This document shows, piece by piece, positions 2,475-33,590 of a DNA stretch of 35,384 bases (positions are counted from its first letter, which is position 1; each line of letters opens with the position of its first letter). The position numbers were made by a program, and so were the translations under genes. The stretch is from Sphaeroforma arctica JP610 (Eukaryota). The stretch is from positions 72,533 through 107,916 of the forward strand of contig NW_014040557.1 of the NCBI RefSeq assembly GCF_001186125.1, written 5' to 3'. The notes beneath the pieces were generated by a model. The model was not told where the DNA came from, made no database searches, and saw only the letters and a program-made list of their open reading frames with translations.

Positions 2475-2659
2475 ACATACAATGCGACTATTAAATATGT
2501 CGAGTGTAGCAAATGCGTATGACCGTACTAAAGATGCGCACGCAGTAGAGGGTCAGGAGTCTGAAAACACTACAGACTTAGAGCATACGCAAGTGGATTC
2601 TCAACACCCTACCTTTATTCTGGAAGAGCAGAATGAGAAAACATTCTCGCTTGGCTGAC

Positions 2660-4185: not shown

Positions 4186-5062
4186 TATAATACGCCGGGC
4201 CTCCACATTAGACTATATGTTATAAACGTACTCTTAAGCAGTACGTAAATTATAAACGTACTCTTAATAGTACGAGGAACTTAAGTTTCCTAAATGTACT
4301 CTTAATAGTACGAAGAACCTAAGCTTCCTAAATGTACTCTTAATAGTACAAGGAACTTAAGTTTCCTAAATGTACTCTTAATAGCACGAGGAAATTAAGT
4401 TTCCTAAAATGGTTTTTAATGGTTTTATTAATTAATACCTTTTCCTTTTTTACATATCAGATATTAATAGAACTTAATTTACTTTCCAATTTTATTTATA
4501 TCTGAATACTTCGGTAGCGAGATGGCTCAACCGAATATAGGTTTCTAGGGACTATTAACGTTACCTAGTTAATCCTCCGATCAGCCAACCAGATGTGCCA
4601 GTCTGATGAAGGCTAAGTCGGTAATTCTTGATAGTGGCAAGTTATTGGTTGAGACAATAACTAAGGACATCAAGAGTACTTTTCTTTTTTTATTTCTTTT
4701 TTCTAAAGATAGGATTTTATGAGTCTCTCGGATTCGCCCCAACGAAACGTACCATAATTTCTAATAGAGCGACAACGAAACACTAAATAAAATCTCTTCG
4801 GCGTAAACAGTACTGAGAGGATTATATATAGGCAATGTCTCAGCCTCACAATCCCTCAGAATATCCTTTTTTCACGAGGCATACCTAACTTTACTAAACG
4901 TCTCATTTCGTTCATTTACCTTGATATTTACACGATACTTATAATTTGTCTACGCGTTTATTTATTCTAAGGCATTAGTATCGCCTTTATTAGACCGAAT
5001 TTTACACTAAGCGTTTAATTACTCTATGACGTTAATATCGCCTTGATAGACCGAATCTTACA
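4186..5062 (+). repeat. 3' LTR (about 877 bp)
   Basis: Colinear with the reverse complement of 33591-34456 and ends ...gaccgaatcTTACA. The start is mutated TG>TA. It contains a TATA-like TATATATA at about 4823. Confidence 0.92.
4258..4409 (+). repeat. 38-bp tandem repeat x4 inside the 3' LTR
   Basis: Unit gtactcttaatagtacgaggaacttaagtttcctaaat at 4258, 4296, 4334 and 4372. The other two LTR copies have a single unit. Confidence 0.93.
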
Positions 5063-8330: not shown

Positions 8331-9437
8331 TTTTGTGTTTCTTCAAGGTTGCAGTTCACTCAGCGCTATCTTCGTTTATATGTATTTTATATTCTTATCT
8401 AGTGTATTGGACCATACTTGTATAATGATGATTGTTGCGGTTGGTCTATGATCTGAGTGCTCGGCACATGTGACTCCACAATACCTTTCCGCTCCACTTG
8501 GAATTGTGTGAACTTATACCTCAATTATATTAATGTCTTGAACGCTGATCATCTGCTCTACGTTTATCTGTGATTGTGTGTACAAACGTACCCTTGCGAT
8601 TTTACAAATTATACAAACTTTTATATTTTTGCATATTGATGTCTTTCTATCTAAAGGTACCCGAGTATGCGTAAGTTATCTGTACTTATCGATCAAGTGT
8701 CTGTTTGTATTGATCTGTGTTTCTGAAACACCCTTGCTTCATTATTATGGTTTTTTCATAGACTACTTGAAATGTTCTCATCTATATTCATAAGCACTAA
8801 TGCCCCGTGCCAAAGCGCATGTTTGATATTATGAATATACCACGCCTTTCAAATGTAGAGCATGGGGCCAGTAGGATGTCGCTGGTATCAAGTATCATTC
8901 TTTAACGTGTACTGCGTTGTTTATTGTCCATGATTGTTCGCTGCATCGTGACTTAAGATATTTTTATTTATGGTGTTTGATATGTATTTCATTGCTAATT
9001 GATTTTTGGTAGTAAGGCATTGGTAACACGGCAGATGTAGCACAGTTAATTAGACGGGAAAGCCTCAAACACCTTTGCTGCCATATACCGTTGTCTTTTC
9101 TTGAGCGATTCTATGGTTGACAAGTTCTGCACACACGTTAGGATTCATTTGGATTCTGTTCTCACACATACTCATCCAACGGAGCTTGTTTTTCACAACG
9201 TCGTCGTCCATGTGCACCAACTTCTACACTGCCTCCTATGGCATATCTTTTATGTGACGACCTAGTAGTCGCTAGACTGGCGTTATGATAAGAAAATGTA
9301 TGTGCACAAAAAATGTAATCAGTACTGTGCTGCCCTTCCATGGTTTGTGGAATTGTACGAACCAAGCACTATGATAGCTTGTCTCCCCGTACTTAAGCAT
9401 AGTCTGCGATTCTTTACTTACAGATATATACTCCATC

Positions 9438-12400
9438 ATGAGCATAGTTACGTTCTTGGAGCACACGCTCTCCGCGAACGACAATGACCGTATCCAGGCC
9501 ACACAGTACCTCGAGCAAGCAGCTGAGGCCAACTTGGCTGAGTTATTAAAGGCTCTGGCCGAGGTGATACAGAGTGACAATGTGCCGGAAGGGCCCAGAC
9601 AAGCCGCATGTATTAGTTTTAAAAATCACCTCACAAGCAAGAACGAGACCAAGAAGCATTTTAATCAACAGCGATGGTTACACCTTGAGGCTCCGGTGCG
9701 AGCACATATTAAGAACATAATCCTGCTATCACTCAAGACACCCAACACCCGAGTGGGTGCCCAAGCCGCTCAGGCGGTGAGTGCTATCGCACAGGCGGAG
9801 TTGCCCCAGTCGCAATGGCCTGAGCTGATTCCCAGTTTGCTGCAGAACTGCACCGACCCACAGTCCCCCACACCCACAAAGCAGAACACGCTAGAGACGG
9901 TAGGGTTTATCTGTGAGGAGATCGACCCTATGGTGCTTAAGCAGTACTCTAACGATATACTCACGGCGATTGTGAACGGTATGCGCAAGGACGAGCCAAG
10001 TATGGATGTGCGCTTGGCCGCGACCCGAGCGATGTTGAACTCGGTGGACTTTGTGAAGACAAACATGTCCAATGAAGCAGAGAGGAATTACATCATGCAG
10101 GTCGTATGCGAGACCACACAGACACCTGGCAACGTACAGCTGCGTGTGCGTGCGATGGAGTGTCTCAACCGTATCGTACAGCTATACTACGAATTTATGA
10201 AGGTGTACATGCAGGAGGCTCTGTTCCAACTGACACTGCAAGCCATGAGGGAGGACGAAGACGAGGTGTGTCTGCAGGCCATTGAGTTCTGGTCCACGGT
10301 GTGCGACGAGGAGATGGAGATTGAGATGGGCATGTTGGATGCCCAAGAACGTAGTTACGAGCCAGAGAGGGTCAGCCAATACTATGCGCGAGGTGCACTC
10401 CCCCACCTGGTAGCTATTCTGACCGAGTTGCTGTGCAAACAGGATGAGAGCGATGACGATGCCGATGCATGGAACGTGGCGACGGCGTCAGGAGTGTGTC
10501 TGTCTCTGCTGTCTAACTGCTGTCGCTCAGATATTGTAGCGCCCATGCGTCCCTTTATTCTGGGTAACATCACAAACGCCTCGTGGCACCAGCGTGAGGC
10601 TGCTGTGCTGGCGCTGGGATGTATCCTAGAGGGTCCCGATGAGTCGCATCTGGAGGACATAGTGAGCTCATGCATGTCTGTGCTTACACAGCTGATGGCA
10701 GACCCGAAGGTACAGGTCAGAGACACTTGTGGGTGGACTATCGGACGCGTGTTCGAGTACCTGCCGCACGTTGTGCTCTCCGAGAATACGAATATGAATC
10801 CCCTTATTCAGGCACTTGGAAGTGGTATGTCGCTATGTTCGTGTTTGTTAATCGTTCGTTCTCGCGGTCAGTATTAGTGCCTTTAGTATAAGTTCCGACT
10901 TTTTTCACATGAAATAGCTGCGGTTAGGCGCTGTCCTTTTATAGATGTGTTTCATCGCGTGTCAATTTTATTCTGGTTTAGCTATATCCATATTGGGCGC
11001 AAACATCCAACTCATCCCAATATATATATATATATTACTACAGCACTGCAAGATGTCCCGCGTGTGGCCAACAATGTGTGCTGGACGATCAAGGCCTTAG
11101 CCGATGCCGCGTATGACACAGCTTCTGCACACTCCGATTCCGATGACGTCGAGACGTACACACTATCCCCATGCTTCGAGGTATGCACTATACTTTGATT
11201 GTTCTGCTTACATTGATATCTGCGGGATCAGAACACTGTAATGGGTTTCAATTCAAACTTGTGAATACGATTTATATTTGACGTGCGTTAACAACACGCT
11301 GTAACCTTGCCTGCAGTCAATATGAGTGCAAGCGTCAGGTTGAGAGTAAGCGCCTGAATTCTGTCGATGTGTCGCAATATTTTGTGACCGCGTTGTATTT
11401 GTCTCCATCATGCGGGCTCTGGTACTCTAGATGGAAAAAATAGTTGCTTGCTATATTTATATGCACACTCATCGCGACGAATGAATATGGTTAGATTCGA
11501 TTAACTTATAGGGAGAAAACTTAGATCCGCGAATAGTGAAGAAACCCAAACAGAGTAAACTATACTGTACCGGAATAGCGCTGTATGGCTTGGTGCTGAT
11601 CACACAGTATCAGACTTTTAAAGCGTTTCGAGTAGAACTTTATCGGTTGCTAGTATATCAAAAAGGTTACCTTCATGCATTGCGCGATGAGATGAGGGGC
11701 CGATTTCGAGTACTGCTAATTCTTGGGCGTTTAAATGAAGATTTTTAAGTCGTGGGTCCGCTTTTTACTCATCATCGCGTTGTATCAACCCCAAATCTTT
11801 ACAGAGCTTGGTGCAGGAGCTGTTGAAGACCACAGAACGTCCCGACGCCAACAACCAACTTCGTGTAGCCGCGTACGAGTGTCTCAACACTGTAATTCAG
11901 ACGGCACCAAATGACTGTTATGCTTATATCATTCAAACCACTGTCAGCATCATGGGACGATTGGAGAAGGCTTTGTTACCACATGACCAGGTACGTATCT
12001 TACGAGTGTCTCGGCTTGACACGTTCAGTATAGAGTAGTGTTGGTTGATATTCTGGTTTTCACGGCGCGCGACGTAACAACAACATGTGTGTAATGTCTC
12101 GTATATGTGTAATGTCTCGTCGCGCTTGAATGTATAAGAATGCATTATTTTTGTGAATGCAAGTCGGTATCTGCGTATCGATGGAGGCTGACATGAGTAT
12201 CTCTTGGAATACAAAAATGACCCAGTATGCGCAAAGGGACTGACAGTGACTCGAACCACACTGTTTATGCATTCAAGTTCAATCCGAAGTTTTTGTCTGC
12301 GAATGCAACAACTCATGTAGTAATCATGTGTCGTCGTGTGGGTGGGTGTATACATTATATATTCAGCTGTAGTCTCAAATTGTTTCATCTGCAGCATGTG

Positions 12401-13893
12401 GATCATTCCCTCCAACGTGGCCTTGACAATCAGCCATATCTAACTATTTTCGTCTCTTCACACCAATCCACTTTCGCACAGCTGCACAGCCAGGACAAGC
12501 AAGTGCACACCGAAGTTCAAGGTCTGCTGTGTGCTTCACTCTGTGCACTCATCAACAAACTACATCGTGAGGATCTGATGAAAATCTCTGATCAGGTGAT
12601 GCAGATCCTGTTGGTCATGCTACGCACAACCGACGCCCAGGGTGTGCACGAGGATGCGCTCAACGCAATTAGCGGTCTTATCTCCCAGTTGGAAGAGGAC
12701 TTTGAGAAGTACATGGAGCATTTCAAGCCATTCCTATTGGCCGGTATTGTGTCGAGCGACTACGCGATTGGCTGTCAGAGTGTGGGTATGACGGGAGACA
12801 TCGCTCGCGCCCTGGGTAGCAATGCACAGAAGTACACTGACGAGCTCATGAATCAGCTGTTACAGGCTTTGAACATGTCTACCTTGCCCCGCAATGTGCG
12901 ACCGGATATTCTGTCTGCATTCGGTGATATTGCTACGAGCATCGGCCCGTCTTTTGAAAAATATCTGCCTTTCGTCATGCCCATCCTGGTGGACGCGTCG
13001 AATGTCCCTGCGCCACAAAACCAGGTATAGGATGATAAAAAGTTGTTGTCATTGATGCACGTTGGTTGAGTTTTCATTTATCGGTAGTCTAGTCACGTTG
13101 TATTAGCTTTGTTCGATTTTTGTTTACAGGAGACCTATCGATGAGCAATTATGAATTGGTGAGTGTCGCCTATGCTTTTTGTGCCCTTGTTACTCGCAAT
13201 GCATCCCGCGGCTTCATGACCCATCAGAGGCGATGAAAGCGCGTTCAGTGTGTGTACACCGTAGACGCTCACAGCCTCTTTTTCTTTTTCGTTCTATCTT
13301 CACTTAGCCACGTATAATTAATGCGAACGTATTCTCTTACCCCAGAATGACTATGATGAGATCGAGTACGTCAACATGTTGCGCGATAGCACACTGGAGG
13401 CTTTCGCCGGTATCTTCGTTGCGATGAGAGGACATCCAGACACTGTCAGCCAGTACGTGGCACATGTGGCCTCGTTTATGTGCATATGCGCTAACGATGT
13501 TAACCACACCGACACGATGATTAAGGTGATCATCGGCATTCTAGGGTATGTTACATCTCTCTCTTTTTATCAGTTTAGTGTTGGAAGTAGAATGATGTGC
13601 TTGTGTTGTATTCTGTAGTACTTCGGAGTGTCGGAGAAGCGCTAGTTATGTAGTATTTTTATTGCGCAATTGCCGTGTACCGTTAAGGCGGTTTTTATGT
13701 ATTTTAATTCTGCTGTATTTTATTGCTCCACAGAGATTTGACGGACATGTACGGAAAGCAGATGAAGCCCACACTTGAACAGGCTTGGGTACAGCCTGTC
13801 TTGTACAAAGCCTCTAAGAGTAATTGCTCACTGACGAAGAACACGGTTGAGTGGGCTGGACAGCTGATACAAAAGGTTCTCAGGGAGAATTAG
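9438..13893 (+). CDS. KPNB1: Importin subunit beta-1 (karyopherin beta-1/Kap95); exons 9438-10824, 11044-11180, 11805-11990, 12482-13024, 13346-13545, 13734-13893; 870 aa
   Basis: N-terminal IBN_N (ATQYLEQAAEANL...KNHLTSK, QRW). Also AELPQSQWPELI, LETVGFICEEI, ILTAIVNGMRKDEPS, ERNYIMQVVCE, LQAIEFWSTVCDEE, acidic loop KQDESDDDADAW, VRDTCGWTIGR, ILSAFGDIA, DYDEIEYVNMLRDSTLEAF and GILGDL. All introns are GT-AG with consistent phases (1,0,0,0,2). The spliced length of 2613 nt is an exact multiple of 3. Confidence 0.96.
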
Positions 13894-16859: not shown

Positions 16860-19800
16860 TGCACGTCAGATGATGAAAATATACTTGAAGGTAAATGTAT
16901 CGTTTTGGCCGGTATTCGTTCTTACACCTCTAGACAGATACAATGGTTCATCGGCGTTATAGAATAAAATATCATACTGCTTCCCAAAGTTCTGCAAATC
17001 TCGTCAAATGTTCTATCGCCAAATCAATCCTATGCATACTCGGTATTTACGCTATGTATTGCTGCCTCGGTGAAGTTTTTAACACCTGATTCTCCGTCTA
17101 CACCAGGCTATTTTCAGTGAAGGGGGCATTGTCATCTTCTTCCCGAAACAAATCTATTGGCGCCATTTTTGTGTAACCGCTTATGTGGTGGACATAGGTT
17201 GCGGTGTCTCTAGTTATAGCCCATGCATCATGTGTAGCCTGCTCAATTATACGTATGACAGCATTGCATGCATATTCTAAAACATGGTTTTTCTCGGCTA
17301 GGCTCCAAAATCGGTTGAGGACCTCACGTTGGTCCAATTCAAAAGTTGTGCGATCCGCAACGAGTGATATTGTAAAAGTATCATCGTACCGCAATATTTA
17401 TCATCCAGTGGCCACGAAGCACGAAGTGGGTCGTGGTAGATTTGTCCATCATTGGTCTAAGTATGGCGTGAGTGTACATCGAGCCAAAGTAGAACGTATG
17501 TGTTGTTTCTATTCAAGTCTATCAAGGGACCGATAGTGTCCACTTGTATCTTGTCGCCCGGAAATGCAGCCGTTATTGATTGTAAGGGATGGAAACCCTT
17601 CTTGTGAGTTTGGTTCGTAAGACATGGTACACAGCCTTTAATGTATTGGTTTACATGTTCTTTCTAGCGGGACTATGTTGAAGTTTGTTCACTGTTTCTT
17701 CAACGGTGTAGTGGCCCACAGTTAAGGCAGTTCTGACTTCATATGTGAATGTGTCTAGCTCTGCCGACTCGTCCTTGGTTTATACCGACGCGATCTTTAT
17801 GGCTGGATGTGCTAGTTTTTAGTCAAGGTATGGTGATATTGTGTCTATCTTGGCTACTAGTGTGACTCCCCGTTGTGTTTTGTTTCAAGCTGACGTGCCG
17901 CCTTTCAGGAACGTGTTGTTCACGTTTTCGACTATCATCGGATCTTGTTCCAGTAGTGACAGGGATTTGGAAAACCACATTGCATTTGGGTGGTAGGGCA
18001 CATATGTTGTGATGTTCGTGGCTTACTCTGTGACTTTGTCAGAACGTATGGGATTAGCTCCCAGGAAGGATTCACCCATGCGTTTATTTCATCTGCCCAC
18101 TTTTGTAGTAAACTTTGCTGTGTGTGCACTGTGTGCTGCTGCAAATAAATCGAAAGTGAATTTTCAATCCTGCGTTCTGCCTCTTTGTAGAATCGTGGGT
18201 GTAGTTCCAGTCTATGGCAAATACCAGCATGGGCATGTTTGTTTCAAATTTAGTATATTCTTGACCGTTGTGTGTATTCTCGTTGGCTTCCTTCAGCACA
18301 ATTGATGTTTGGATGTTGAAGGTATCTTCGTGCAATCGTGATAGCACGTCGGCAACTTGATTATTTTTACCTGGCACGTGTATGATTGTGAAGTGGTGAT
18401 GGAATGTTTTTGCGATCCACTTTGCTAGCATGGGATGCAGTGTTTGCTGTTTATTCATTTGGCATAGCGCCTTGTGATCTGTCTACAATGTTATATCGCC
18501 TCCATTGATGTACTCCGAAAAATATTCTAGACTGTATACCATCGCTAGTAAATCTTTTGTATTCGTCCCATATCTTTGTTGTGCGGAGTTTACGCCTTTT
18601 GAGAAACAGAGTATATTTCGTCTGACCCCGTCTATGATTTGAAATAGGCAGTCTCCTATGCCATATTATATTGCATCATTAATGATCTGGAACGGTATTC
18701 AATCTACTGGATACGCCAATGTTGCTGAACACGCGATAGCATCGTTGAGTTCTTTTCATTTCTTAACAAGTTCAGCTGTCCAAAGATTTGCTATATTCTG
18801 GTTCATTTTTCCTTTCATGAGATTTCGGAAGTGTTTCGTTATGGGTGCAAACTGGGGTATGTGGTCCCGCATGTAGTTTGCTATGCCGACTGCTCGATGT
18901 AAGTCTCTTTTGGTTCTTGGTAAAGGCCAGTCAATCACGCGTTTATGTTTTTCGGAGTCTGTTTTGAGCCCTTGTTTTGTAACTTTGACGCCTAGTATAT
19001 TGTCTGTCTTGGCTGCAAAAGCACATGTGTTGTGGTTCAACCTGAAGTTGGCCGAGTTAAGTCATTTGATAACTTCTCGTACTGTCTTCCTGTGTTCCTC
19101 TTCGGTGAGGCTGACAATGACTTGTACGCCTTTAATGACAATGAGTAGGTTGGTTATTTCCCTTTGGAGCTGTGCTGATAGCGAGTGTAGTCCGAATGGT
19201 GCTGACTTAAATGAGTACTGTGCCTCTCTCCATAAAAAGTGAAAAAGTGTTGGCTATATACGAAAGCGGTGGAAGCCTCCTGTTAAGTCCAATTTGGAAA
19301 ATTGTGCATCTTGTAGATTGTGTAGTACTTCTTTCACTTTTGGCAATACGATTTTGCCTTGTTCAAGGTGATAGTTGACTTCTCTCAAGTCCAAAAATGT
19401 GCGTACTTTCTTCAGTAGGCCTCTTTGTTCAAATTCACCTGTTGACAGTAGTGGTAGATTCACATGTGTTGGTTTTGTTCTCCTGCATATGTGCCCCTCT
19501 TTCACCCATTTCTGTACATTGCCATCTGTCTGGGGTATGTATTTGTGTAGAACAAAGTTCACTTCAGCGTGTCGTATATTTTTGGCTTTGACTACTTGTC
19601 TCGGTGTATCCACAACTGACCCTGGTAGATTGGAGTGTACATAAGGTGTAATCATGCCGTTTTGGTCTAATAAGTTTGATAGCGATAATCTGAAACCTTC
19701 TTGCTCATGTTCAGGGTCTTCGTCGTGCGGTGTAAAAGTGATTCCCATTTGGCATCTGTTGGTATGAGTGAATTAATTATCCCCGCTGAACATATGCCCA

Positions 19801-20270
19801 AGTATGGTAAATTATCCATACCTAAAAGTATTGTGAATTTTTGTTTGGGAGGTCGAGTACCTGAAAGCAGTTTGATGCTTTTCTACCACCTTAGTTTATA
19901 TCACATACTTCTGTGGAACCTGTATGTTGTACTCGTGCATCAGATTGTGCTAGCTATATGTAGCTGAGTGACAAAGATGGTTCATTTACGACATTGCGAT
20001 CCGTGCATGAGTGTTGTGCTCCTGAATCTACCAGTGCATTGTATGTAGTGTTATAGATATGTATGTCTATGTACAATCTTTGGTCTCGTGGGTTAGGAAT
20101 TAAGAATAAGGTGTATAAGCAATATTATTCGCATTTAATAACAACGTTTGTTCATCAGTGTGTGCATTCACAATGTCTACCATGTTTACCATGTTAGCCT
20201 CTGCCCACCAAGCCTATCAAATTTCTTCGTCCATTTCTTGCACCTTGTTGCCATTAGTGATGGTTAACTG
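16860..20270 (-). mobile_element. Decayed Ty3/Gypsy pol: protease-RT-RNase H-adenine MTase-like domain-integrase
   Basis: PR: NALVDSGAQHS (about 20040-20010) and ILLGMDNL. RT: VRTFLDLREVN, FSKLDLTGGFHR, YSFKSAPFGL, DWPLPRTKRDLHRAVGIANYMR. RH: TDHKAL, KW..HFTIIHVPGKNNQVADVLSR. INT: VGHYT...YIKGCVPC...GFHPLQSITAAFPGDKIQVDTIGP...LLWLDVHSR. Multiple stops and frameshifts; no LTRs seen. Confidence 0.92.
17843..18214 (-). pseudogene. DIRS-type DNA N6-adenine methyltransferase-like domain within Gypsy pol
   Basis: Joining frames gives DW/LHPRFYKEAE/KFTFDLFAAAHSAHTAKF/LLQKWADEINAWVNPSWELIPYVLTK/NITTYVPYHPNAMWFSKSLSLLEQDPMIV. DLFA is at 18151-18140 and NPSW at 18072-18061 (one C>T away from NPPW). 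Confidence 0.8.
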
Positions 20271-20278
20271 GTCTACAA

Positions 20279-21389
20279 GAATTTAAAAATTGTATTTGGT
20301 AGTCAGCAAGCTAAGGCCTAAAAGCTATTGCAGTAAACTACAAGCCCACCCCAGTAAACCTTGCACTTTTGGCCGTGTGAATCTAAAACTCAGTATTTGT
20401 TAATCCTGGGTTTTGGGTTTTGTATTGGCTTTTCTGATAATCTGGTCCCTAGATGCTACATGGCAAAAACGATAAATCAACTCGTCGATCGGTAACTGCA
20501 ATGACTAGACCAGGTACTGAACAGGGAACAACTTCCACGCTCGGATAAATATCTTTTTGTGTACAGACAAGACTCGAAATAGGGGGTTTTATTTTCTTTC
20601 TGATTATGCACGAATAACGAGTTGGTTTGATATATTGTGAATATAAGAGCAGCCTTCACTGATTTAGAAACGAATATATTTGGTAGTTCCACTTGTTAAA
20701 TGCCAAAAGATATGATTGTGTTTCATGTTTACTACTTATTATTTTGAATCCACTTTGACCATCATAAATTCAAAGGGACCCCTTTCTTAAGACACGGATA
20801 TATATAACAGCTATGGCTGTGTCTATGGTCAAATAACCTCCAATGTAGTAGGTATGTAAGCAATTCGCTCTTTACATACCAGTATCTTGCCTTTTAAAGG
20901 ACATCACGGGGCAGAGAGAATACGACTCAAGGGACCCGTACAGGTTTCCGAAAAGATCTCTGTATTGGTCCTGTATAATCATAGGAACGCGCATTGGAAC
21001 TTAGCGATTGTCAAAGTGGACAAAACAGACGCTATAAATACTATTTTAGATGGTATGCGAAGTTCTGCTATAGCTGACTATCGATTCCGTTGTATAGTAC
21101 GATGGATGAAATCCTACCTCACAATGTTACATACAGCTTTAAAGTCGGCGGTGTAACCGTACACGACAGTTTTATATGTGTAGTTTTGCTTGGTGCGTAT
21201 GGTAGTACGTATCATAAAATCCACAACTCGTGCATGATTTGGAGGCATTGGGTTTGCACGACCATGTCACAAGGGCTCAACATGACGACAGAATTTGAAA
21301 ATTGTATTTGGTAGTCAGCAAGCTAAGGCCGAAAAGTTATTGCAGTTAACTACGAGCCCACCCCAGTATACCTTGCACTTTTGGCCGTG
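20279..21389 (+). repeat. 99-bp direct repeats (20279-20377 and 21291-21389), 1012 bp apart
   Basis: gaattt.aaaattgtatttggtagtcagcaagctaaggcc...gcccaccccagta.accttgcacttttggccgtg occurs twice with few mismatches. Confidence 0.92.
20887..21210 (+). pseudogene. Ulp1/C48 cysteine peptidase-like fragment
   Basis: VLYNHRNAHWNLAIVKVDK...TILDGM (HW.L...D) is followed in another frame by VHDSFICVVLLGAY (degenerate Q.D...CG). Confidence 0.55.
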
Positions 21390-21714
21390 GACAAGTTCAG
21401 TTCTGATGGGACCTTGAGAAAAAATCGAGTTCGTTTGGATACGATCCCAATCAATGCGCTTATATTAACATATCTTCAACGAGGAGCGCAGCGCTGGTAA
21501 AGTCGAAATCTAGAACACGTTTCCCAACGTATACATAACTTTTAGCCTTCACGCGAGATTGGATTAGATGAGTCTTCAAGCCGTGGACGAGTTCAGTTTT
21601 GATGGGACCTTGAAAAAAAAATCGAGTTTGTTTGGATACGATCCCAATCAATGCGCTTATGTTAACATATCTTCAACGAGGAGCGCAACGCTGATAAAGT
21701 CGAAATCTAAAACA
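21384..21714 (+). repeat. About 134-bp direct duplication (21384-21517 and 21580-21714)
   Basis: gccgtggac.agttcagtt.tgatgggaccttga...tttggatacgatcccaatcaatgcgcttat...aagtcgaaatcta.aaca occurs twice. Confidence 0.92.
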
Positions 21715-23045
21715 TATCACGCGCTCGGACACGCGCCTTTGCGACGCGTAGCTGAAGACGAGCCGTGGCGCCAGAGTTATCATCGATTTTGTTAAGTTGC
21801 CCACGTCCGAACACACAAAAAAATAAGCATGCCATGTATTTGATGTTGCTTCGCGATGTAACGTATTATACATACCCCTTGAAAGATAACTCAACTCGAA
21901 CTGGCATTTAGTCATTTACGTTGTTTTTTTTGCAGATTTTAGCTGGCCAGCTTTCGTGTGCTCTGTGTTTGGACAAAATCAGCAATGTCATTTGTCTTTT
22001 CAGATACAACTACATTTCGGTACACAGAGGAGAACTATCAACTGACAGGTGTCATGAGACATGAGGTGTCGATAAGTTCCAAAAAGTGACATATATTTAC
22101 AACTTACATGTGAATACATAAAACTCGTGGATGTACATATATAAAGCCCTCAGTAGAGGTATAAATAAAGTTACTCTCTACTCAGTATATTATATGGTTC
22201 TATATGTTGAAACACACTGACAATGGTAGTGAGTTTACAGGCGATGTCATGAAGTCACTGTTAATCGTTGCTGGCACATGCCACAAAATGGGTGTACCCT
22301 ATAAGACTCAGACACAAGGTGCTAATGAGGTGAGACATCGTAAGATGAAGGCGTTTAAGCGAAGAGTGCTACTAGATGATGCTGACTTGTGACCACACTC
22401 GATTAATTGGGTACAAACACAGATAAGCAACCCAACGGATTCAGTTAACACAGGTACAACGCTAGCTCACTATTTCAGGGACCGTTATAGTGAATTACAA
22501 GTCCGTACTATCTAGAAAGCTCGAACATATGTGCTACCATGATCAGAGAAGATGCGTAGAATTAGAGTTGTAGTCTTTTCTTTGTTTGATAGATATGAAG
22601 TATGTCGCTATGGAAAAGAGGCAGAAGCGATTTAATGGTTCCTAGAAAATAGTCGAGTTTAGGTCGGATATATAGCCAACATTTTGGCACGTGATTCTGA
22701 CATAACTGTGCTTACGGCGTGTAGTATATTTAACCGTTCATGATTTCAATGGCCGATAAAAAGGGAAGAACGTATGAAGTCAACAATAACGTTGATGGCT
22801 CAAGTGCCTTTAACATCGGGATGATCGCATTGCAACGATAGAATTCTTCCTTCGCCACACACATGAGGCTGTTAGACCTTTATGTCTTACGAGATTAAGA
22901 AGATACTTGGGAGTACAAACATGATAACACTACATACTACACAAGAGATGGGGCATAATAGCGATCTACTACCATCAACATTTGATGACTCAAACATATT
23001 GTAAGATTTTCATAAGAGTTTTTGTAAACGCCTACACAAAACTGA
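21540..23045 (+). pseudogene. Second decayed Gypsy integrase, related to 2660-3935, interrupted by a solo LTR
   Basis: YHALGHAPLRRVAEDEPWR, LPTSEHT, FDVASR, CTDNGSEF, GVPYKTQTQGANEVRH and GTTLAHYFRDRYSELQ are colinear with the first integrase. Confidence 0.85.
21966..22214. mobile_element. 249-bp solo LTR of a different family with 5-bp TSD
   Basis: TGTTT...AAACA ends; TSD CTCTG/CACTG (21961-21965 and 22215-22219); internal TATAAA and AATAAA. Removal restores the integrase F-V-C-T-D-N-G-S-E-F. Confidence 0.82.
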
Positions 23046-23639: not shown

Positions 23640-25070
23640 AATTTATAGCACACACTACCGAGGGTTGAAGCTGAACAATTTTTTTTGTTGCAATTTAACA
23701 AAATAACGTATTATAGTCAGCCCGATTCGACCGACTTTACATTTGTGGTGGAAAATTCCACGAGGCCGTTTCTGATTGAGCAGTTGCGCGGTATATGCGA
23801 AGGACCGGGCAGGACAGTGATCAAGGCATCGGACGGGGTAAGTAAAGTCGTAACATGTTCGACGGCAGAGAAAACTGACATTACGAGTGACACAAGTTAG
23901 TTGCACGTGGTGTTTTACCCTTCCTTAGATCGTAAAATGGCTGATGGTGGTGTAAAGATGCTAGTTATTAGGAACCCCCAAAATTTATATATTGTCCTGT
24001 AATCGATTATGTAAGACGATTGTTGAGATAGGGTAGAAGTGAGGTAGCTAAGACCAAGACCAGGAAGCATTTCTCGCTCGGTACCATGCATGGTAGGCTA
24101 GTCAGTAAGTATCAGAGGAAATGTCTTTTTCCATATCAATGAGGAGATAACGTGCTGCGGTGTGTATGTAGAAAACGGTGACGCCACCATCGATCAAAAA
24201 TAGATAGGTAGCGGTTGTAATGAGATGCAAGCGACAGTGACATCAGGATAGGTTGAGGTAGATTTATCAACTATATGTGAGAAAAAGCTCTTAAAGGTGT
24301 GCTCTTCAATAGTGCACAGGTTCTATATGAACAAACAGGGCGTCGAAATTAGCATCGTGATGGTATGATTCGCCACATCGACCACAAAACGGTGTGAATT
24401 AGTCTGTTACTATGTTTCTATCCATTCACAATGATGAAGATGTGACAATAGCACGATCATTGCTGATGAGAAACTAATTGTCCTGCTCTTGGACTGATTG
24501 ACCGAGTCCAGAAAGAAAAATATGTATCTTGGATAAAGACTGAAAAATTACGGTTCACTAGCAAGCAACGGCACGCTGGAGCTTGATGCATCGATTTACC
24601 CAGGAGCGCATAGATTCCCCATCGTTGACGCGGAATGCTGCAAGGTAAGCTATGTTGATCGGCTGAGCAACAGTTGCATACTTAAAGAACAATATATTGC
24701 GCAAAATTTGAAGAAGTGTCCAAGGATCAGACAACAGTTCCTCAGGGTCGAAGGACTGACGAAGTCCATTGGATAGGAAATTAAATACGATATTACAAGC
24801 GCAGCCGTAACAACAATATTTAGTGGAAGTAGTACAGAACTGTGTAGCCTGAAAATAAAGTTGGTTAGGAGGGTACACTATGAGAGTTTCGCCGGGAGGG
24901 ATGTTGGGTTGGCCATCTGGGATATATTCGAGGACAGGTGGCACATTTAGTTCAGCAGAGGATGCGGCCACACGGAGATCGCTCAGTCTGACGTCGGGGT
25001 TGTCAACACCGAGAGTGCTTGGGTCCAGTGGCGGTGGAAGGCTGCGGTGAATGCAGTGTCGGATTCCATA
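23640..25070 (-). pseudogene. Decayed retrotransposon gag-protease remnant
   Basis: ORF 24558-24971 ends LAAFRVNDGESMRSWVNRC (gag Q..GES...y..RF-like). TYLFLIDGGVTVFYI at about 24210-24165 resembles an aspartyl protease active site. Confidence 0.55.
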
Positions 25071-25519
25071 TTGAGCAAGGGGCTTTATTAACAGTTATTA
25101 TACTATATTTTATAAATTATTAAACTGTATTGACTCTTCTTCGGAAAAATGGTTATATTAATATATTTTCGGTGTCAAATATAAATTCAAACGGGTGTGC
25201 GCATTGGGGATATGGATACAATAAGTACTCTTGTAGATGAAGCACAAATAGGATAAAAGCAACGGCGCAAGATAAGTGAAAAATAAGTTTTTGTATAACT
25301 TATGTATCTAGAAAAACCATGTTTGTATTTTTAAACCTAGTTCGGACGTGCCAAAAATGCTCTGGGAAAGAAAAGATTTACATATGTATGTATAATTGTA
25401 ACATACGTATTTCTGTTTTTTTTGTTTTATCTAGGAGCTCCGGTACAGAGACTCGTCGGTACCTTGAATCTTGGCGGGTCCCGAATCATGAGTCATGCTT
25501 CCGGCAATTCATATCAGGT

Positions 25520-27240: not shown

Positions 27241-27297
27241 CATCGATAAGGAAGAGAGCCCAGTAGTGTTGACCGAGGATGACCAATATTAGGACCA

Positions 27298-29318
27298 ATG
27301 AGGATGACGCTCTTCAACCCACAAGGACTCAACATGGACAACGCAGCACATACAGATAAGTGTCTGAACGTTGTATCGATTTTGAGTCAGGTTGATGTTC
27401 TGTGTGTGGTTGAAACCTGGCATAACACCACATTTCTTAATCATATACGTTCGAACACACACTACCATGTTCTACATCACGCTACACGACATAATATCTT
27501 ACACCCTTCACACTGTGGTATTGGCATTTTTTCCAAACACCATCCATCGAAATTTCAACTTGTACATTCCTCACCGTACGCGGTGTTCTTTGTGTGCTTT
27601 GGGCGTTCATATGGCCGTGTTCTACCTTCTACTCAAATTACTTACTGAAGAAGACGTCAGGCTATACATGAATCCCCCCGAGATTGGCAATTTCCAACCA
27701 GATGTCGTTTGGGGAGATTTCATTTTCAAAGCCCAGAAGTATGGCCATACATCCACAAATCACGGACTACGTATGAAAACGATCGAGACTACTCTGCGTA
27801 ATACGTGGCACTTGGACTACCTCCATGCTGGCGGCTCAACTGGTACAGAACATGCGTATCATCGGCCTACCACCTCCGCCTCCCTCCAGATCTATAAGCA
27901 GAAGGACTACGGTATCTGTGGTGACCACACCTTTGGACTCGATCTCCAGATACTTCCAATGAATCAAATCCATCGGCCCCAACAAATGCCAACAATGCCG
28001 CCGCCTCCGAACCAACGCCTCCCCTCTCGTGGATATAACCGATACCGCCATCGACTGTATCACCTACGCAACAAATCCCGCGCGCGACTATTCCAAGCCA
28101 AAATCCGGGCACATCAGAACCTACTACGGTCGGATTTAACTTTGTACGGATCAGCGGAAGGGCAGCTACGAATCCTCGACCGCATTTGGCGCTATGCCGC
28201 TAACTCACAAATCTTCGAGGGTTTCTACTATGACTTAAACAGACCCTGGGTTCAGCGGCTGCCAAACCATTCGTTCCGCCCACGTCTGACCGCCCAAAGC
28301 AATGCTCAAATGTTCAAATATATTGCGTACCAACGACGGTCTCCGCGCCAACCCTGCATACCGGGTGCCGATGACACAGGCGCTACCCTCGCTGGCTACT
28401 TTGAGGACCTATTCAACTATACAAACCTGTACGTGGTTCCACCGGATACCGAACCCTCGCCCGATGTCGCTTCCACCATACGCCCTGACAATGTAATGGA
28501 GGCTATACTACGATATCCCTATAAGGGACCTGGCCCCGACGGGATTCACATCCTCCTCCTGGAGACCGCAGTGGAGCGCTCCACCGAACGCAGGACATTA
28601 GGACGCCCCGACGCCAATAGCCCACTGATTAGACTCCTTGCCGAAGCATTCACTGAGCTACAGAAGGCGGGTACCTTCCCTGCAGCCCTGAACTGCAGCC
28701 TCCTGACAGCGCACCCAAAGAAAGCTGATGCAGATGTAACCCCTCCCCCGCCTAGTCAGACGCATCTTTGAAAAGTGCTTTCTTAAGCTGATTGCGAGCC
28801 ACCCCAGCTCTGCTACCCATGCTACCCAAGCTGGCTTCAAATCACGATACTCCTGTCATACCCAAGCATTCGCCGCCATGGAATCTGAGACATAGTCAGA
28901 AGAGGAGTGGAACGACTTCTGTCTGGACATTACCAAGGCATACGACAATGTTGCTCTCCCACGCCTATGGGTACTCCTGCGCCACGTTGGAATGCCCGAA
29001 AACTGGATCAACTGCCTTTGCGCGCTATTTGAGAGGGTCCCTACCCGAGTGACATACCGCTGCACGCTCGTGCCTCTATTCCATATAACGAATGGCATTC
29101 TACAAGGCTCAATCGTCGGCCCCCGGCTCTTTACTATCTACACGGATTCCTTAACTGTCACGCTAGCACAATTTCGGCCCAAGCTCCTCCGCTCTTATTT
29201 ATTTGTCGATGACACACGGATCCAAGCCCCCCAACCGGTTCCGCTCCAGCCCTTCTTAAGCGACATTGATGCGTGGGGACGCAAATCTGACCTCGAACAG
29301 GGTGTCATTGAACCCTGA
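27298..29318 (+). pseudogene. LINE ORF2: APE endonuclease + reverse transcriptase, frameshifted and 3'-truncated
   Basis: EN: TLFNPQGL, DVLCVVETW, GIGIF, WGDF, LDYL, GDH. RT: KGPGPDGI, PKK, IFEK, QAGF, LDITKAYDNV, GILQGSIVGPRLFTIY and FVDD (29202-29213). Confidence 0.93.
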
Positions 29319-29429
29319 GTACAAAAAAAATTCCAGTTGGGACCCACAGCCACAAATGTTGGGCCAGGCCAAACCCCCAACTAAGTCGTTCGTCACCAAG
29401 GACTCCTTGCCCAATGACTAATAGAAATT

Positions 29430-30310
29430 GGACTTACAAAAATCTATCACAGACCTCTCTATCCAGGTTAATACTCTACAGGCCAATCTCAACCAAATAT
29501 CAGGACCGGCTCTACCAAACCCGAACAATGAGGGCCCATTTCCAAGAAGCCTCTAGCTGACGACCAATGGAAATCCACCATGCATCAAATGCTCACTAAA
29601 CTATGTGTCAAGGTGAACAACCTCGAATCCGAACTCCGGGACCTAAAATCCCAAACCTGTGCACCTCTAAATGAAGGCACACCCCACACCATCCGAACCG
29701 CGGCCGAGGGCACCCAATAGCAGCAGTGAGCCTTCCAGCTACTGCTCAAAAGGAGACAAACCCGCAAAACCTAGCCCCAAAAAACGACCGACCACACCAG
29801 CTTCTCAACCCCTACTGCAGTCGCCAGTACCCACACACCTTTTGACGAAAGTGATGGGCCGCCCGATGCCGGACAAAACTCTCCACGAAATGGATGACGT
29901 AACTCCGGTATGGCTCTTCTCTCGGGCAATTTTTCCTAACGGCAAACCTCCATCCCAATCAGAATTTGAAAATTACTGGCACGCTCTACCGCTCCTCAAT
30001 CGCCATCACTTCTTTTGGTATCTCCCGTCCAAACTGATTTCTCAACTAAATCGCCACGGGAGTTCCACCAGTTTCGTCCGCCTTTGTGTTCCTAGTGACG
30101 CTGTTGCCCAGGTGAAACGACATGCAACACTTACGTGGAAATGGCAGTTTGATGAAACTATCGACCCACGCTCCAAACATTATCCCGACTCTACGAAAGT
30201 AGCTTCAATCCACTATCTTCGTACCAAGCGGGAGGCTCGCTGCACACATGAACGAGCGCCAAAAGTTCTTGCCAGCAGCATGGATGCACTACTGAACCCC
30301 CTTGTCAGCT
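29430..30310 (+). pseudogene. Possible LINE ORF1-like protein (coiled coil, Pro/Lys-rich linker, globular domain)
   Basis: Coiled-coil-like LQKSITDLSIQVNTLQANL and LTKLCVKVNNLESELRDLK precede ORF 29671-30339. The C/A-rich strand bias matches the adjacent LINE. No diagnostic motif. Confidence 0.4.
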
Positions 30311-30314
30311 CCAC

Positions 30315-30410
30315 TTGTAACTTATCTCTTTTGAAATAAATAAGATTATCTCTACAACGGCTATGAGAGACATTGTAACCTAGCTTTTTGAAATAAATGA
30401 TATTATCCCT
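30315..30410 (+). repeat. Putative LINE 3' tail with tandemly duplicated ttgtaac...tttgaaataaat..attatc unit
   Basis: Two copies of the unit are present, and the sequence is shared with 6849-6960. Confidence 0.6.
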
Positions 30411-31900
30411 ACCATGGTCGCTACGGGTACCATGGTTTGAACTGTGTAAGTCACTGTTACAGGTGGAACCACTGTTAGTTCCACGAACACCACTTATGTT
30501 TTCGAGGTACGCGAAGTATGCCTGCGGGGAGATGCCGTGGGGCCACACAGTGATTGCAAGGTTGGGGCCGACCACGGGCTTTGTATTCGACGAGTCTTCT
30601 CAGGAACGCCACGTTCTTTGCTATATCACAGATGTCTGGGTACGTCCCGTGAGATACCGGTCGCTCTATCCAGCACTGAGGCACAACAAGCTTTCGCGAA
30701 TACTACACCAGCAGAACAGCAACGTCGGACAAACAAGGATACCACGGTACGTCGGACACGGTAGACCAGCTACAACTGAACGGTCATGCTGACCAGGTGA
30801 ACAGAAGCTAAACGACAGTGTAGAGCGTGTTTGGGCTAGTACACTCTGAAAGGATTCCATCCTATGATTGGCATCGACACCCGATATCCGTGAAATAATA
30901 TCCAAGTGAACTATATCCCCATGCTAGTCATGTCACGGCGGAAGAATATTTTTTTTTTCACGTGTTGGACGTCGCTTCAGGATAATCAATCCCAAAGCGG
31001 CACCGAACAAGTCTAAAGATACCACTGCACAGACGTTGATGGCTATCTATGATGAACAAGGGTTCCCCCGTATGATGCAGTCGAATATGGGGTCGGAATT
31101 CGTCAACTAAGTGGGCTATTATGCGTTTGATTTCTCCACCATATAACCCACAAGTCTTAAGGACGACGGAATGGCAACACAAGGAGATCATCCGGTCGAT
31201 ATGAATATGCTGTGGAGCAATTCCTCAAGCATGGGACGAGCTTTTACCATTCACAATGTCATATCAGAACCTGCAGATCTCCCGGCGCTACAAGAGTGTA
31301 CCTTTCAGCGTGTATATCGGTCGACGACACGTACTATTTGCGGATTTCATCAACGTCTCCCTGAATAGCCAGACAGTGACCAATAACTTTTGGGTCCAAC
31401 GGTTGGACAAGCTGCCGGACGCCATTCTGCCGACACTCCCACTAGATCACCAAGTATACGGATAACCTCACGAAGACGTCTGATCGCCTACATGCTCACA
31501 ACTTGGTTCATTTCAAAATAGGGGACGTGGTGATGGTGAAGTCGGAAGGCCCTAAAGGTCCGTTGTTTGGACCATATGTGGTAAAAAGCCCAGAATGGGC
31601 AGTTCTTCGACCTGTCCACGCAGGACAGATTGATGCTTATCGAGTTCAAAGGCCGACCTGCACGTGCCGAGCTCTTACGCTTAGCCCACAAGAACACTGA
31701 CCATCTGTTAGAAAAGACTATATGGCGAGACGGTGGTTCAGCATTCCGACATATTATACGGCATCGCACCAACGACGACACTGACAAGGTTGAGTGTCTC
31801 GGGCGTTGGCGGGAAGGAGAACACCGACGTGGGGAACATAAGAAGCTTTTGATGACGCTAATGACATTGTGACATACCACAAAGACTCACAGACACCGTC
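30409..31900 (+). mobile_element. Decayed Gypsy pol 3' part: MTase-like C-terminus, integrase, chromodomain
   Basis: LPWSLRVPWFELCKSLLQVEPLLV...GHTVIARLG (30409-30567) aligns with 18001-17843. Then YVGHGRPATT, FHVLDVASG, GFPRMMQSNMGSEFVN, SPPYNPQ, FKIGDVVMVK..GPYVV and the chromodomain-like FRHIIRHRTNDDTDKVECLGRW. Confidence 0.85.
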
Positions 31901-33590
31901 GAAGAAACGGGTTTTATTTACCCAGCTGTTTCACTTAAACTTACAGACCCCGCTCGAGAGAGCAATAATAACCGAGTCCTCTAGCTCTCTGATGTTAAAT
32001 GCCAGCCGAGCTCCAGCTCGCTGAGGATTAATGCCAGCGGATTCCTCATGTTTGTGATACTAAGTATAATTTTCCCTTTCTTTCTTTTTTAAGCTGGCAC
32101 AAGTACCGTGCTTCAACTTTGGGGTGGGTGGGTTTGTGGTAATAATACTTAGGATTAAGATAATTTTAGGAATAAACTTGGTTTGTCCGATCCGATTTGC
32201 TGATCGGATTTTAAACACATGCCAACTTATCAAATTATATCTCACAAGCTAATAATTAATAAATAGACAACGACCCCCTTTGAATGAAGGAGGTTGTACG
32301 TTGAGGTGCTGTTATCTTGGCGTATTTACTACACCAACAATAACTAGACGCTCTTGTTGAAAAGTTGGATAGTTGATCTGTAATGTATTCGTAGCCCTGC
32401 TAAAGAACTGCACATACCTCACGTTCCCAAATTAGTTGATACAATACGCTGTAACTACCATGAACGGTATCCTATCTTTTGGTTGCTGGACGACTGTTTT
32501 GAGCTGCTTAAAGGCATCATCACATTTTTTTTTGTCTATAAAGATATTAATTTACCCTTGTGACACAAGTATTCAAAAGGCTTAAGATAACTTGCTAAAT
32601 ATGGAACTCCATCCGACAGACAGTTGACGAAACCCCACATGCTGCTCACGTTCTTGCCGGTGGTAGGTGTTCTTCATTCTAGTAAGTGTTCGATCTTTCC
32701 GATATCAATCATGATTCCTTCTATCTCGCTGACGCCAAATTGTCATTTCTTGCTACTGATTATACAGTTGTGTTTGTTCAATCTGTTTATGTCATGTTCT
32801 TCTTTGGTATTCGGCGATATATCTATACGTTATCCATGTCTAGAACCAAATCATGCATGATCTGTCGTAAGAACGCTGGTAACATGTGCACAACAAACGG
32901 TACCCCCTTAAACGAATATTTTTGCCCATCCTAGGTATTTGTGAATTACTTCCTATGCTGCTTAAATATCTTCATCTGGTGGTAGCCTTGCTTTAAATCG
33001 ATAGTGGAGAAGCTTTTAGCTCCAACCATATGTCACAGCCATTCGATAATTCTCTGTAGGTGAGGTTTTTATCTTGGAATGAGTGCGTTTATTTTGCTCA
33101 AATCAAAACACACTCGAAATCATTCAGTGTCCCATCTGAAATAAAATGGTCTACTGCCAAGAGTGCCAGGTTTACGGGAGTGAGTTCGTAGTTGACTGCG
33201 ATTACTCCAACTTCCAACCAGGTCTTGACTTGTTCTCTAACTACCTGTTCGTGACGCCAAGCTACGTAGTTGCGCGTCCGACGTTTTGACTTCGAAAAGT
33301 CTACGTTAGTAATGTCTAAAGCTCACATACCTGCTATTGAACTTGAACTTAGCCCAATCTTTAATCTTGAGCCCCAATATAAATTTCGAAGATCAAATCC
33401 CCAACTTTGTCTGTGACTGTAGATATCATATCTCTCACAGTCTTTGAAGGCTTATATACAAACTTCAGTAAGTTGTCATCTGACTAATCCTTCTGTGGGT
33501 CGATGTTGGTTGGTGAACATGGAATAGTTATACCTAACGACAACAAGACTCACATACCTACTATTAAATCATAATCTGTTGAGGTGTTGC

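What the first reader, a model, noticed from the sequence alone, without database searches (positions are those of the whole stretch)
30409..31900. Second, divergent Gypsy remnant has the same MTase-like domain upstream of an integrase with a chromodomain
Seen in sequence: LPWSLRVPWFELCKSLLQVEPLLVPRTPLMFSRYAKYACGEMPWGHTVIARLG (30409-30567, +) aligns without gaps to VPYHPNAMWFSKSLSLLEQDPMIVENVNNTFLKGGTSA*NKTQRGVTLVAKID (18001-17843, -). By hand count there are 13/53 identities, plus TGA opposite TGC. It runs in frame into the integrase His motif (YVGHGRPATT), followed by an rve core and a chromodomain-like tail. The upstream part of the domain (DLFA/NPP) is replaced by the LINE tail. Inference: the same position in two elements this divergent argues that the MTase is an old, inherited part of a Gypsy lineage rather than a chance insertion. 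It would put a DNA-modification writer and a chromatin reader in one polyprotein.
Basis: partly seen in the sequence, partly recalled or inferred. Interest (0 to 1): 0.85.

Follow-up and report, generated by a model that had tools for sequence, protein, structure and literature searches.

The report
Decayed Gypsy with methyltransferase and chromodomain
This is a broken piece of a Ty3/Gypsy jumping gene, in a genome identified as the protist Sphaeroforma arctica, whose family carries a phage-type adenine-methyltransferase-like domain and a divergent chromodomain; such elements were described in a 2026 preprint that reported no chromodomain in this lineage, so the finding is likely a small correction rather than a new system.

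Summary
The core observation holds. The two peptides share 13/53 identities, and 0 of 20,000 shuffles reach the score. Intact relatives of the first element read PR-RT-RNaseH-Dam-integrase-chromo in one ORF, with DLFA and NPPW (Pfam Dam E 4e-15). The remnant aligns to them from the Dam C-terminus to the tail. One sister-copy gene model of the second family has the Dam N-terminal half, but with DVFV and CPPW. The chromodomain is supported in both families, scores below Pfam's cut-off, and lacks cage residues Y24 and Y48. One detail is wrong: the frame is broken near 30593 and 30733, and YVGHGRPATT is an off-frame look-alike. The host is S. arctica. DAM-LTRs, Dam-plus-chromodomain elements and an ichthyosporean lineage are already in bioRxiv 10.64898/2026.05.21.726589. 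What this adds is that S. arctica elements carry a cage-less chromodomain, which that text says the lineage lacks. Methyltransferase activity is untested. This copy is dead.

The parts
30409..30582 (+). C-terminal third of a DIRS/phage-type Dam (N6-adenine methyltransferase-like) domain, family 2; codons 30409-30417 are ambiguous (shared with the LINE-tail repeat)
   Evidence: 68% identity (36/53) to sister copy P0012 and 37% (20/54) to Dam-bearing P0001, 0 of 2000 shuffles each; BLASTP E 1e-12 to P0001; family-1-only HMM iE 2.4e-9
30583..30736 (+). Dam-integrase linker, broken by frameshifts near 30593 and 30733; a short deletion removes the first His of the HHCC motif
   Evidence: frameshift-aware alignment to P0012; tblastn of P0012 and P0007 in another frame at 30558-30731 and 30666-30908
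30737..30830 (+). Integrase N-terminal zinc-finger remnant: YHG motif at 30740, CxxC (RQCRAC) at 30813-30830
   Evidence: aligns to P0001 856-890 and to the P0012 C-terminus
30855..31440 (+). Integrase catalytic core, decayed: both catalytic Asp positions read Asn (IQVNY 30900, MQSNMG 31075), Glu kept (TEWQH 31166); several stops and frameshifts
   Evidence: DDE assignment from established knowledge of rve integrases
31441..31734 (+). Integrase C-terminal region with GPY motif (GPYVV 31569-31583)
   Evidence: 133/217 identities to P0004 over 31256-31910
31735..31895 (+). Divergent chromodomain; W45 kept, Y24 and Y48 equivalents absent; frameshift near 31822, stop at 31839
   Evidence: placement; identity of the domain in sister copies
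30315..30417 (+). Two 57-nt-period LINE-tail repeat units that truncate the Dam domain; many other copies of the tail end at 30354
   Evidence: repeat family D7; alignment; loose ends at 30354 in 19-25 contigs per run
27283..30354 (+). Decayed LINE (endonuclease + RT) upstream of the remnant
   Evidence: Pfam Exo_endo_phos E 2.3e-5, RVT_1 E 1e-12
17429..20195 (-). First, family-1 Gypsy copy: protease, RT, RNase H, Dam, integrase N-terminus; cut off near 17429
   Evidence: tblastn to P0001, 70% identity over RT-RH; Pfam; contig cover from other copies drops at about 17428
17825..18210 (-). Complete but frameshifted Dam domain of the first element (DLFA 18151; VNPSW 18075, a decayed NPPW; VPYHP 18001)

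Best explanation
The stretch is a dead, 5'-truncated copy of a second family of Sphaeroforma arctica DAM-LTR Ty3/Gypsy retrotransposons, whose Pol likely read protease-RT-RNase H-Dam-integrase-chromodomain and which likely inherited both the Dam domain and a cage-less chromodomain from an ancestor shared with the first family. Shown: the domain order in two intact family-1 proteins; the same order from Dam C-terminus to chromodomain in this remnant; a Dam N-terminal half in one family-2 gene model; and sequence constraint on Dam and chromodomain in family 1. Inferred: the Dam travels with Pol into the particle and acts on, or binds, the element's own reverse-transcription product. In family 1 (NPPW intact) it most likely deposits 6mA that helps new copies stay in permissive chromatin, as the preprint proposes. 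The chromodomain likely tethers integrase to chromatin without a canonical methyl-lysine cage, as plant group II chromodomains are thought to do. This copy does neither: it lost its 5' half at a LINE-tail junction and has stops, frameshifts and two Asp-to-Asn changes in the integrase.
For: P0001: Dam PF05869 E 4.4e-15 (above gathering), between RT_RNaseH and Integrase_H2C2/rve; Chromo E 0.015. P0008 has the same order. The remnant aligns collinearly to P0001 755-1263 (150 identities in 527 columns). Family-2 fragments from named S. arctica gene models: P0012 joins the Dam C-terminus to the integrase His motif; P0010 extends upstream to WKL/DVFV/CPPW (35% to P0001, E 1e-20); P0003-P0007 and P0011 join the integrase C-terminus to a chromodomain. 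Chromodomain evidence: Pfam Chromo in 5 of 7 aligned members, best E 7.1e-5; 42 of 42 PDB hits of the family-2 profile and 20 of 21 for the family-1 tail are chromodomain proteins; Atlas features score 0.92 with 26 of 30 hits Chromo, and TM 0.74-0.82; the AF2 model has pLDDT 79 with three strands plus a helix, and all 37 Foldseek rows shown are chromo or chromoshadow proteins. P0001 versus P0008: Dam 79-80%, chromodomain 88%, RT/RH 94-95%, against 44% in the Dam-integrase linker and 48% in the tail.
Against: No full-length family-2 Pol was found, so its RT side and single-ORF state are inferred. The only family-2 sequence covering the catalytic motif has CPPW and DVFV; it is an automatic gene model of a decayed copy, and Pfam gives it no Dam hit (the Atlas score of 0.88 is a lead only). 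All Chromo scores are below the gathering cut-off, P0008 had no Chromo hit, Foldseek had no E <= 0.001, and the best VIA Z was 6.7, under the tool's bar of 8. The RH-Dam linker is as conserved as Dam (80%), so the constraint evidence is modest and is not dN/dS. The preprint's E. coli tests of eukaryotic DAMs gave no 6mA increase. No tree with outgroups was built.
Confidence: 0.8

Rival explanations
1. Family 2 keeps the Dam fold as a non-catalytic or altered nucleic-acid/SAM-binding module, with the catalytic Asn replaced by Cys family-wide. It would then not be a 6mA writer. This is compatible with the architecture above but changes the mechanism.
For: P0010 reads GCPPW and DVFV where P0001 and P0008 read ANPPW and DLFA. 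Asn to Cys needs two base changes in one codon. Earlier scan notes (unchecked AI notes) report loss of the motif in DAM-LTRs of other genomes.
Against: It rests on one gene model, which also lacks about 7 residues just after the motif and may be mis-spliced or decayed. No second copy covers the motif.
Confidence: 0.35
2. The two families captured Dam independently from related DIRS elements at the same place, just after RNase H.
For: The preprint reports at least four independent DIRS-to-LTR transfers, one also between RT and integrase. DIRS MT follows RNase H, so the position is predisposed.
Against: Dam divergence (38-43%) matches integrase divergence (37%). The two families share a long Dam C-terminal motif (ACGKTPWG) and a similar cage-less chromodomain. 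The preprint finds one ichthyosporean clade (support 97%).
Confidence: 0.12
3. The segment is a chance juxtaposition or assembly chimera: a DIRS fragment next to a Gypsy integrase.
For: The locus is a pile of decayed elements, and the 5' half is missing.
Against: A different locus (P0012, SARC_09702) has the same Dam-linker-His-motif order. Contigs cross the remnant with 0 differences in 4 of 4 runs. Intact family-1 ORFs have the same order.
Confidence: 0.02

Closest known systems
Ichthyosporean DAM-LTR lineage (Fernandez-Moreno et al., bioRxiv 10.64898/2026.05.21.726589; whole main text read, supplements not seen)
   Same: Ty3/Gypsy-like LTR element with a DIRS-derived Dam domain; S. arctica is a named host; NPP catalytic triplet in family 1.
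   Different: The text says this lineage 'lacks chromodomains'. Both families here have a divergent chromodomain, with Pfam E-values of 7e-5 to 0.02, above the paper's 1e-5 threshold (my inference for why it was missed). Family 2 may have CPPW.
Chlorophyta DAM-chromovirus-like clade and EpiLTRs (same preprint)
   Same: Dam and a chromodomain in one LTR retrotransposon; chromodomain-containing LTRs are 30.9% of its DAM-TEs.
   Different: Different host group and, per the preprint, an independent capture. No cytosine DNMT in P0001 or P0008, so not an EpiLTR.
DIRS1-like retrotransposon pol RT-RH-MT (PMC3266345, passages read)
   Same: An MT domain directly after RNase H.
   Different: Here a DDE integrase with HHCC and GPY motifs follows, not a tyrosine recombinase.
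Group II chromodomains of plant chromoviruses (PMC3350952, passages read)
   Same: Integrase C-terminal chromodomain that lacks Y24 and Y48, keeps W45 and the TW(E) motif.
   Different: That 2012 review knew group II only from plants; descent from plant group II was not tested and convergence is more likely.

Membership tests
Ty3/Gypsy LTR retrotransposon | pol order PR-RT-RH-INT | tested here: met
   Met in family 1 (P0001, P0008). The remnant keeps only the Dam-INT-chromo part; no family-2 RT was seen.
Ty3/Gypsy LTR retrotransposon | DDE integrase with HHCC zinc finger and GPY/F motif | tested here: met
   Decayed but aligned: YHG, CxxC, core and GPY.
Ty3/Gypsy LTR retrotransposon | Flanking LTRs, PBS/PPT, target-site duplication | tested here: inconclusive
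   No LTR pair around the remnant; 5' end truncated; only a short repeated stretch at about 31950-32023.
DAM-LTR (Fernandez-Moreno 2026) | Pfam Dam (PF05869) domain within an LTR-type pol | tested here: met
   Family 1: E 4.4e-15 and 2.4e-14. Family 2 by homology to that domain: E 1e-20 and 1e-12. No direct Pfam hit on family-2 fragments.
DAM-LTR (Fernandez-Moreno 2026) | Asn-Pro-Pro catalytic triplet followed by an aromatic residue | tested here: inconclusive
   Met in P0001 and P0008 (NPPW). Deleted in the remnant. CPPW in the single family-2 gene model P0010.
Ichthyosporean DAM-LTR clade | Host among P. gemmata, A. whisleri, S. arctica | tested here: met
   P0002, 97% identical to the window over its matched stretches, is named SARC_00013 of S. 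arctica JP610.
Ichthyosporean DAM-LTR clade | Placement inside the clade in Dam and RT trees | not testable with these tools
   The preprint's sequences and supplements were not available, and no outgroup sequences were in hand.
Ichthyosporean DAM-LTR clade | Lacks a chromodomain (as described in the text) | tested here: not met
   Chromodomain found in both families. Either the description needs correcting or these are families the paper did not include.
Classical / group I chromodomain (methyl-lysine reader) | Aromatic cage Y24, W45, Y48 | tested here: not met
   In alignments to HP1 and CDYL, Y24 falls on S/V, W45 is kept, and Y48 falls in a 3-residue deletion.
Chromovirus clade | RT phylogeny within chromoviruses | not tested
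   No reference RTs were in hand.
DIRS1-like element | Tyrosine recombinase in place of a DDE integrase | tested here: not met
   A DDE integrase follows the Dam domain.
EpiLTR | Additional cytosine DNMT domain | tested here: not met
   No DNMT hit in P0001 or P0008; family 2 is known only in fragments, and its frame ends in stops soon after the chromodomain.

The most novel reading that the evidence does not exclude
Ichthyosporean DAM-LTRs carry an overlooked cage-less chromodomain that steers integration toward 6mA-marked, permissive chromatin. The 6mA enrichment credited to their Dam would then come partly from where they insert. One of two anciently split families has swapped the catalytic Asn for Cys and kept the Dam fold as a binder rather than a writer.
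Probability: 0.15. Interest if true: 0.6.

Novelty: new variant of a known kind. Interest (0 to 1): 0.3.

Why it matters
The Dam-in-Gypsy architecture, its pairing with a chromodomain and its presence in S. arctica are already in a May 2026 preprint, so the headline is not new. The useful additions are two. First, S. arctica DAM-LTRs of two deeply split families carry a chromodomain that standard thresholds miss, which corrects the published description and offers integration targeting as a rival explanation for their 6mA enrichment. Second, if family 2 really has CPPW while family 1 has NPPW, one culturable host holds a natural pair for testing whether catalysis matters.

Tried and rejected
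No whole genome is held, so complete copies and dN/dS could not be obtained. Pfam on the decayed remnant itself: no Dam, rve or Chromo hit. PDB phmmer of 31591-31860: 0 hits. Word-based homolog search with 30397-30789 against longer proteins: 0 of 52 candidates. Two metagenome scans (78 and 135 pattern matches) and one viral scan (2 matches) confirmed no relative. AF2 on the family-2 alignment A3 gave pLDDT 39 and was not used. A search for the family-2 Dam N-terminal half in the window, both strands, 60 tiles: best score 47 against a median of 29, so absent. That query (P0010 13-88) also missed the family-1 Dam N-half in this tile scan, so it is weak on its own; the P0001 query and the HMM found only element 1. 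No RNA holder was listed for the region; this says nothing on expression. Contig depths were not used as copy numbers. One search was sent in the wrong frame by mistake; it found P0001 through the Dam pieces. YVGHGRPATT was rejected as the integrase His motif. Whether the third Gypsy family in the window lacks Dam is inconclusive, as its copies are deleted at that point. Literature searches for prior description. Only the preprint covers ichthyosporean Gypsy methyltransferases, and the library lacks most subscription papers.

Full report
Setting. The window is eukaryotic: it holds an importin beta-1 gene among decayed retroelements. A gene model over this very locus (P0002, 97% identical over its matched stretches) is named SARC_00013 of Sphaeroforma arctica JP610, so the host is taken to be that ichthyosporean. 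No whole genome was available.

The pairwise match. The peptides at 30409-30567(+) and 18001-17843(-) share 13 of 53 residues without gaps. The local score is 56 against a shuffle mean of 18.5 (maximum 49); 0 of 20,000 shuffles reach it. Sliding the first peptide over all 70,446 ungapped windows of the six frames gives the second as the top non-self hit (55; next 15).

What the domain is. Pfam gives no Dam, rve or Chromo hit on the decayed copy. A homolog search from the first element returned P0001, an intact 1288-residue Pol, and an HMMER search from the remnant returned 9 proteins, among them a second intact Pol, P0008. Both read protease, RT, RNase H, Dam (PF05869, E 4.4e-15 and 2.4e-14, above the gathering score), integrase zinc finger and rve core, with DLFA and NPPW present. 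The first window element is about 70% identical to P0001 over RT-RNase H. The remnant aligns collinearly to P0001 residues 755-1263, from the Dam C-terminus to the tail (150 identities in 527 columns); the Dam piece alone gives E 1e-12.

The second family. The other hits are S. arctica gene-model fragments of sister copies. P0012 is 68% identical to the remnant's Dam piece and continues through the linker to the integrase His motif. P0010 covers the upstream half and aligns to the P0001 Dam at 35% (E 1e-20), but reads DVFV for DLFA and CPPW for NPPW. The evidence is one automatic gene model of a decayed copy; Pfam gives it no hit, and the Atlas places it near Dam clusters as a lead only (0.88; TM 0.64-0.68 for 8 of 9 rows). 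No full-length family-2 Pol turned up.

A correction to the reading frame. The Dam piece does not run in frame into the integrase. Alignment to P0012 needs frameshifts near 30593 and 30733, and both P0012 and P0001 place the His motif at (QG)YHGTSDTV, 30740, one frame over from the Dam. YVGHGRPATT at 30748 overlaps it in the Dam frame by coincidence. The first His is lost in a short deletion, the two catalytic Asp positions read Asn, and there are further stops and frameshifts. The copy is dead.

The junction. Contigs cross the LINE-tail/Dam junction with 0 differences in 4 of 4 runs laid (one run may be the assembly's source). Many other copies of the tail end at 30354. A second tail-like unit follows and aligns through about 30417, so the LPW codons could come from either side. 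The N-terminal Dam half, and any family-2 RT, are absent from the rest of the window, so the 5' half was lost and not merely displaced.

The chromodomain. In the window it spans 31735-31895 with a frameshift near 31822 and a stop at 31839. In sister copies Pfam Chromo hits 5 of 7 aligned members (best E 7.1e-5, 23.1 bits, cut-off 25.1). All 42 PDB sequences matched by the family-2 profile at E <= 10 are chromodomain proteins (best E 1.4e-4). The Atlas gives Chromo for 26 of 30 feature hits (0.92) and TM 0.74-0.82. The family-1 tail behaves alike: Pfam Chromo E 9.1e-5 for the stretch alone, 20 of 21 PDB hits are chromodomain proteins, and an AF2 model (pLDDT 79; 6 rows, including family-2 sequences) has three strands and a helix. 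All 37 Foldseek rows shown for that model are chromo or chromoshadow proteins, though none reaches E <= 0.001; the best VIA Z is 6.7, below the tool's bar. Each score is weak, but the hit lists agree. In both families the HP1 cage residues Y24 and Y48 are missing and W45 is kept. That is the pattern of group II retrotransposon chromodomains (PMC3350952, passages), so canonical methyl-lysine reading is doubtful.

Age and constraint. Families 1 and 2 are 38% (Dam N-half), 43% (Dam C-part), 37% (integrase C-terminus) and 30% (chromodomain) identical, each above all shuffles (0 of 2000; 0 of 500 for the integrase). A third Gypsy integrase in the window is 27% and 24% identical to them. Similar divergence across domains fits one old capture, but no tree with outgroups was possible, and position alone is weak evidence. 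Between P0001 and P0008 the Dam is 79-80% and the chromodomain 88% identical, against 44% and 48% for the Dam-integrase linker and tail; the RH-Dam linker is also 80%. This is protein-level evidence and not dN/dS.

What is known. bioRxiv 10.64898/2026.05.21.726589 (whole main text read; supplements not seen, and they may show domain maps that bear on the chromodomain point) describes DAM-LTRs, at least four DIRS-to-LTR captures, a chlorophyte Dam-plus-chromodomain clade, and an ichthyosporean clade in P. gemmata, A. whisleri and S. arctica that 'lacks chromodomains'. It reports more 6mA and more expression at DAM-LTRs in S. arctica, and no activity of the DAMs in E. coli. DIRS pol has MT after RNase H (PMC3266345, passages). 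Searches listed no other paper on ichthyosporean Gypsy methyltransferases; other listed papers were seen only as search listings. The paper used an E-value threshold of 1e-5, which all Chromo scores here miss; that this explains the discrepancy is my inference, and I could not test whether these two families are the ones it analysed.

Mechanism and verdict. Shown: architecture, homology, decay. Inferred: the Dam acts on or binds the element's own reverse-transcription product (likely a 6mA writer in family 1, uncertain in family 2), and the cage-less chromodomain tethers integrase to chromatin. The finding is a real but dead copy of a known kind of element, with one useful correction (the overlooked chromodomain) and one thin lead (CPPW). 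Interest 0.3.

Noticed in passing
window 2637-3935 (+), 21300-22500 (+), 33304-32200 (-); LTR-like repeats 2220-2464, 4194-5062, 34410-33591 (-): A third Gypsy family with no Dam hit in its fragments. The first copy is a nearly open integrase (rve E 1e-7) between LTR-like repeats. Its C-terminal tail aligns weakly at the chromodomain position (13 of 2000 shuffles against family 2; 181 of 2000 against family 1).
   Followed up: partly
window 9435-13030 (+): Importin subunit beta-1 gene (IBN_N, HEAT, TPR_IMB1 E 7e-52), the only clear host gene seen.
   Followed up: no
window 17429-16300 (-): The first element stops at about 17429 and is followed by sequence with no match to P0001 and no Pfam hit, covered by one contig only; part of it reads like decayed coding sequence of unknown origin.
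   Followed up: partly
window 30315-30417 (+): Other copies of the LINE tail have a longer spacer before the second repeat unit (joints and loose ends), which suggests tandem 3' repeats or a short element sharing the LINE tail.
   Followed up: partly
window 29671-31107 (+): The public gene model SARC_00013 (P0002) splices LINE sequence to off-frame pieces of this remnant; it is likely an annotation artefact.
   Followed up: partly
window 24558-25094 (-): A 178-residue open frame with no Pfam hit, possibly a gag-like or other element fragment.
   Followed up: no
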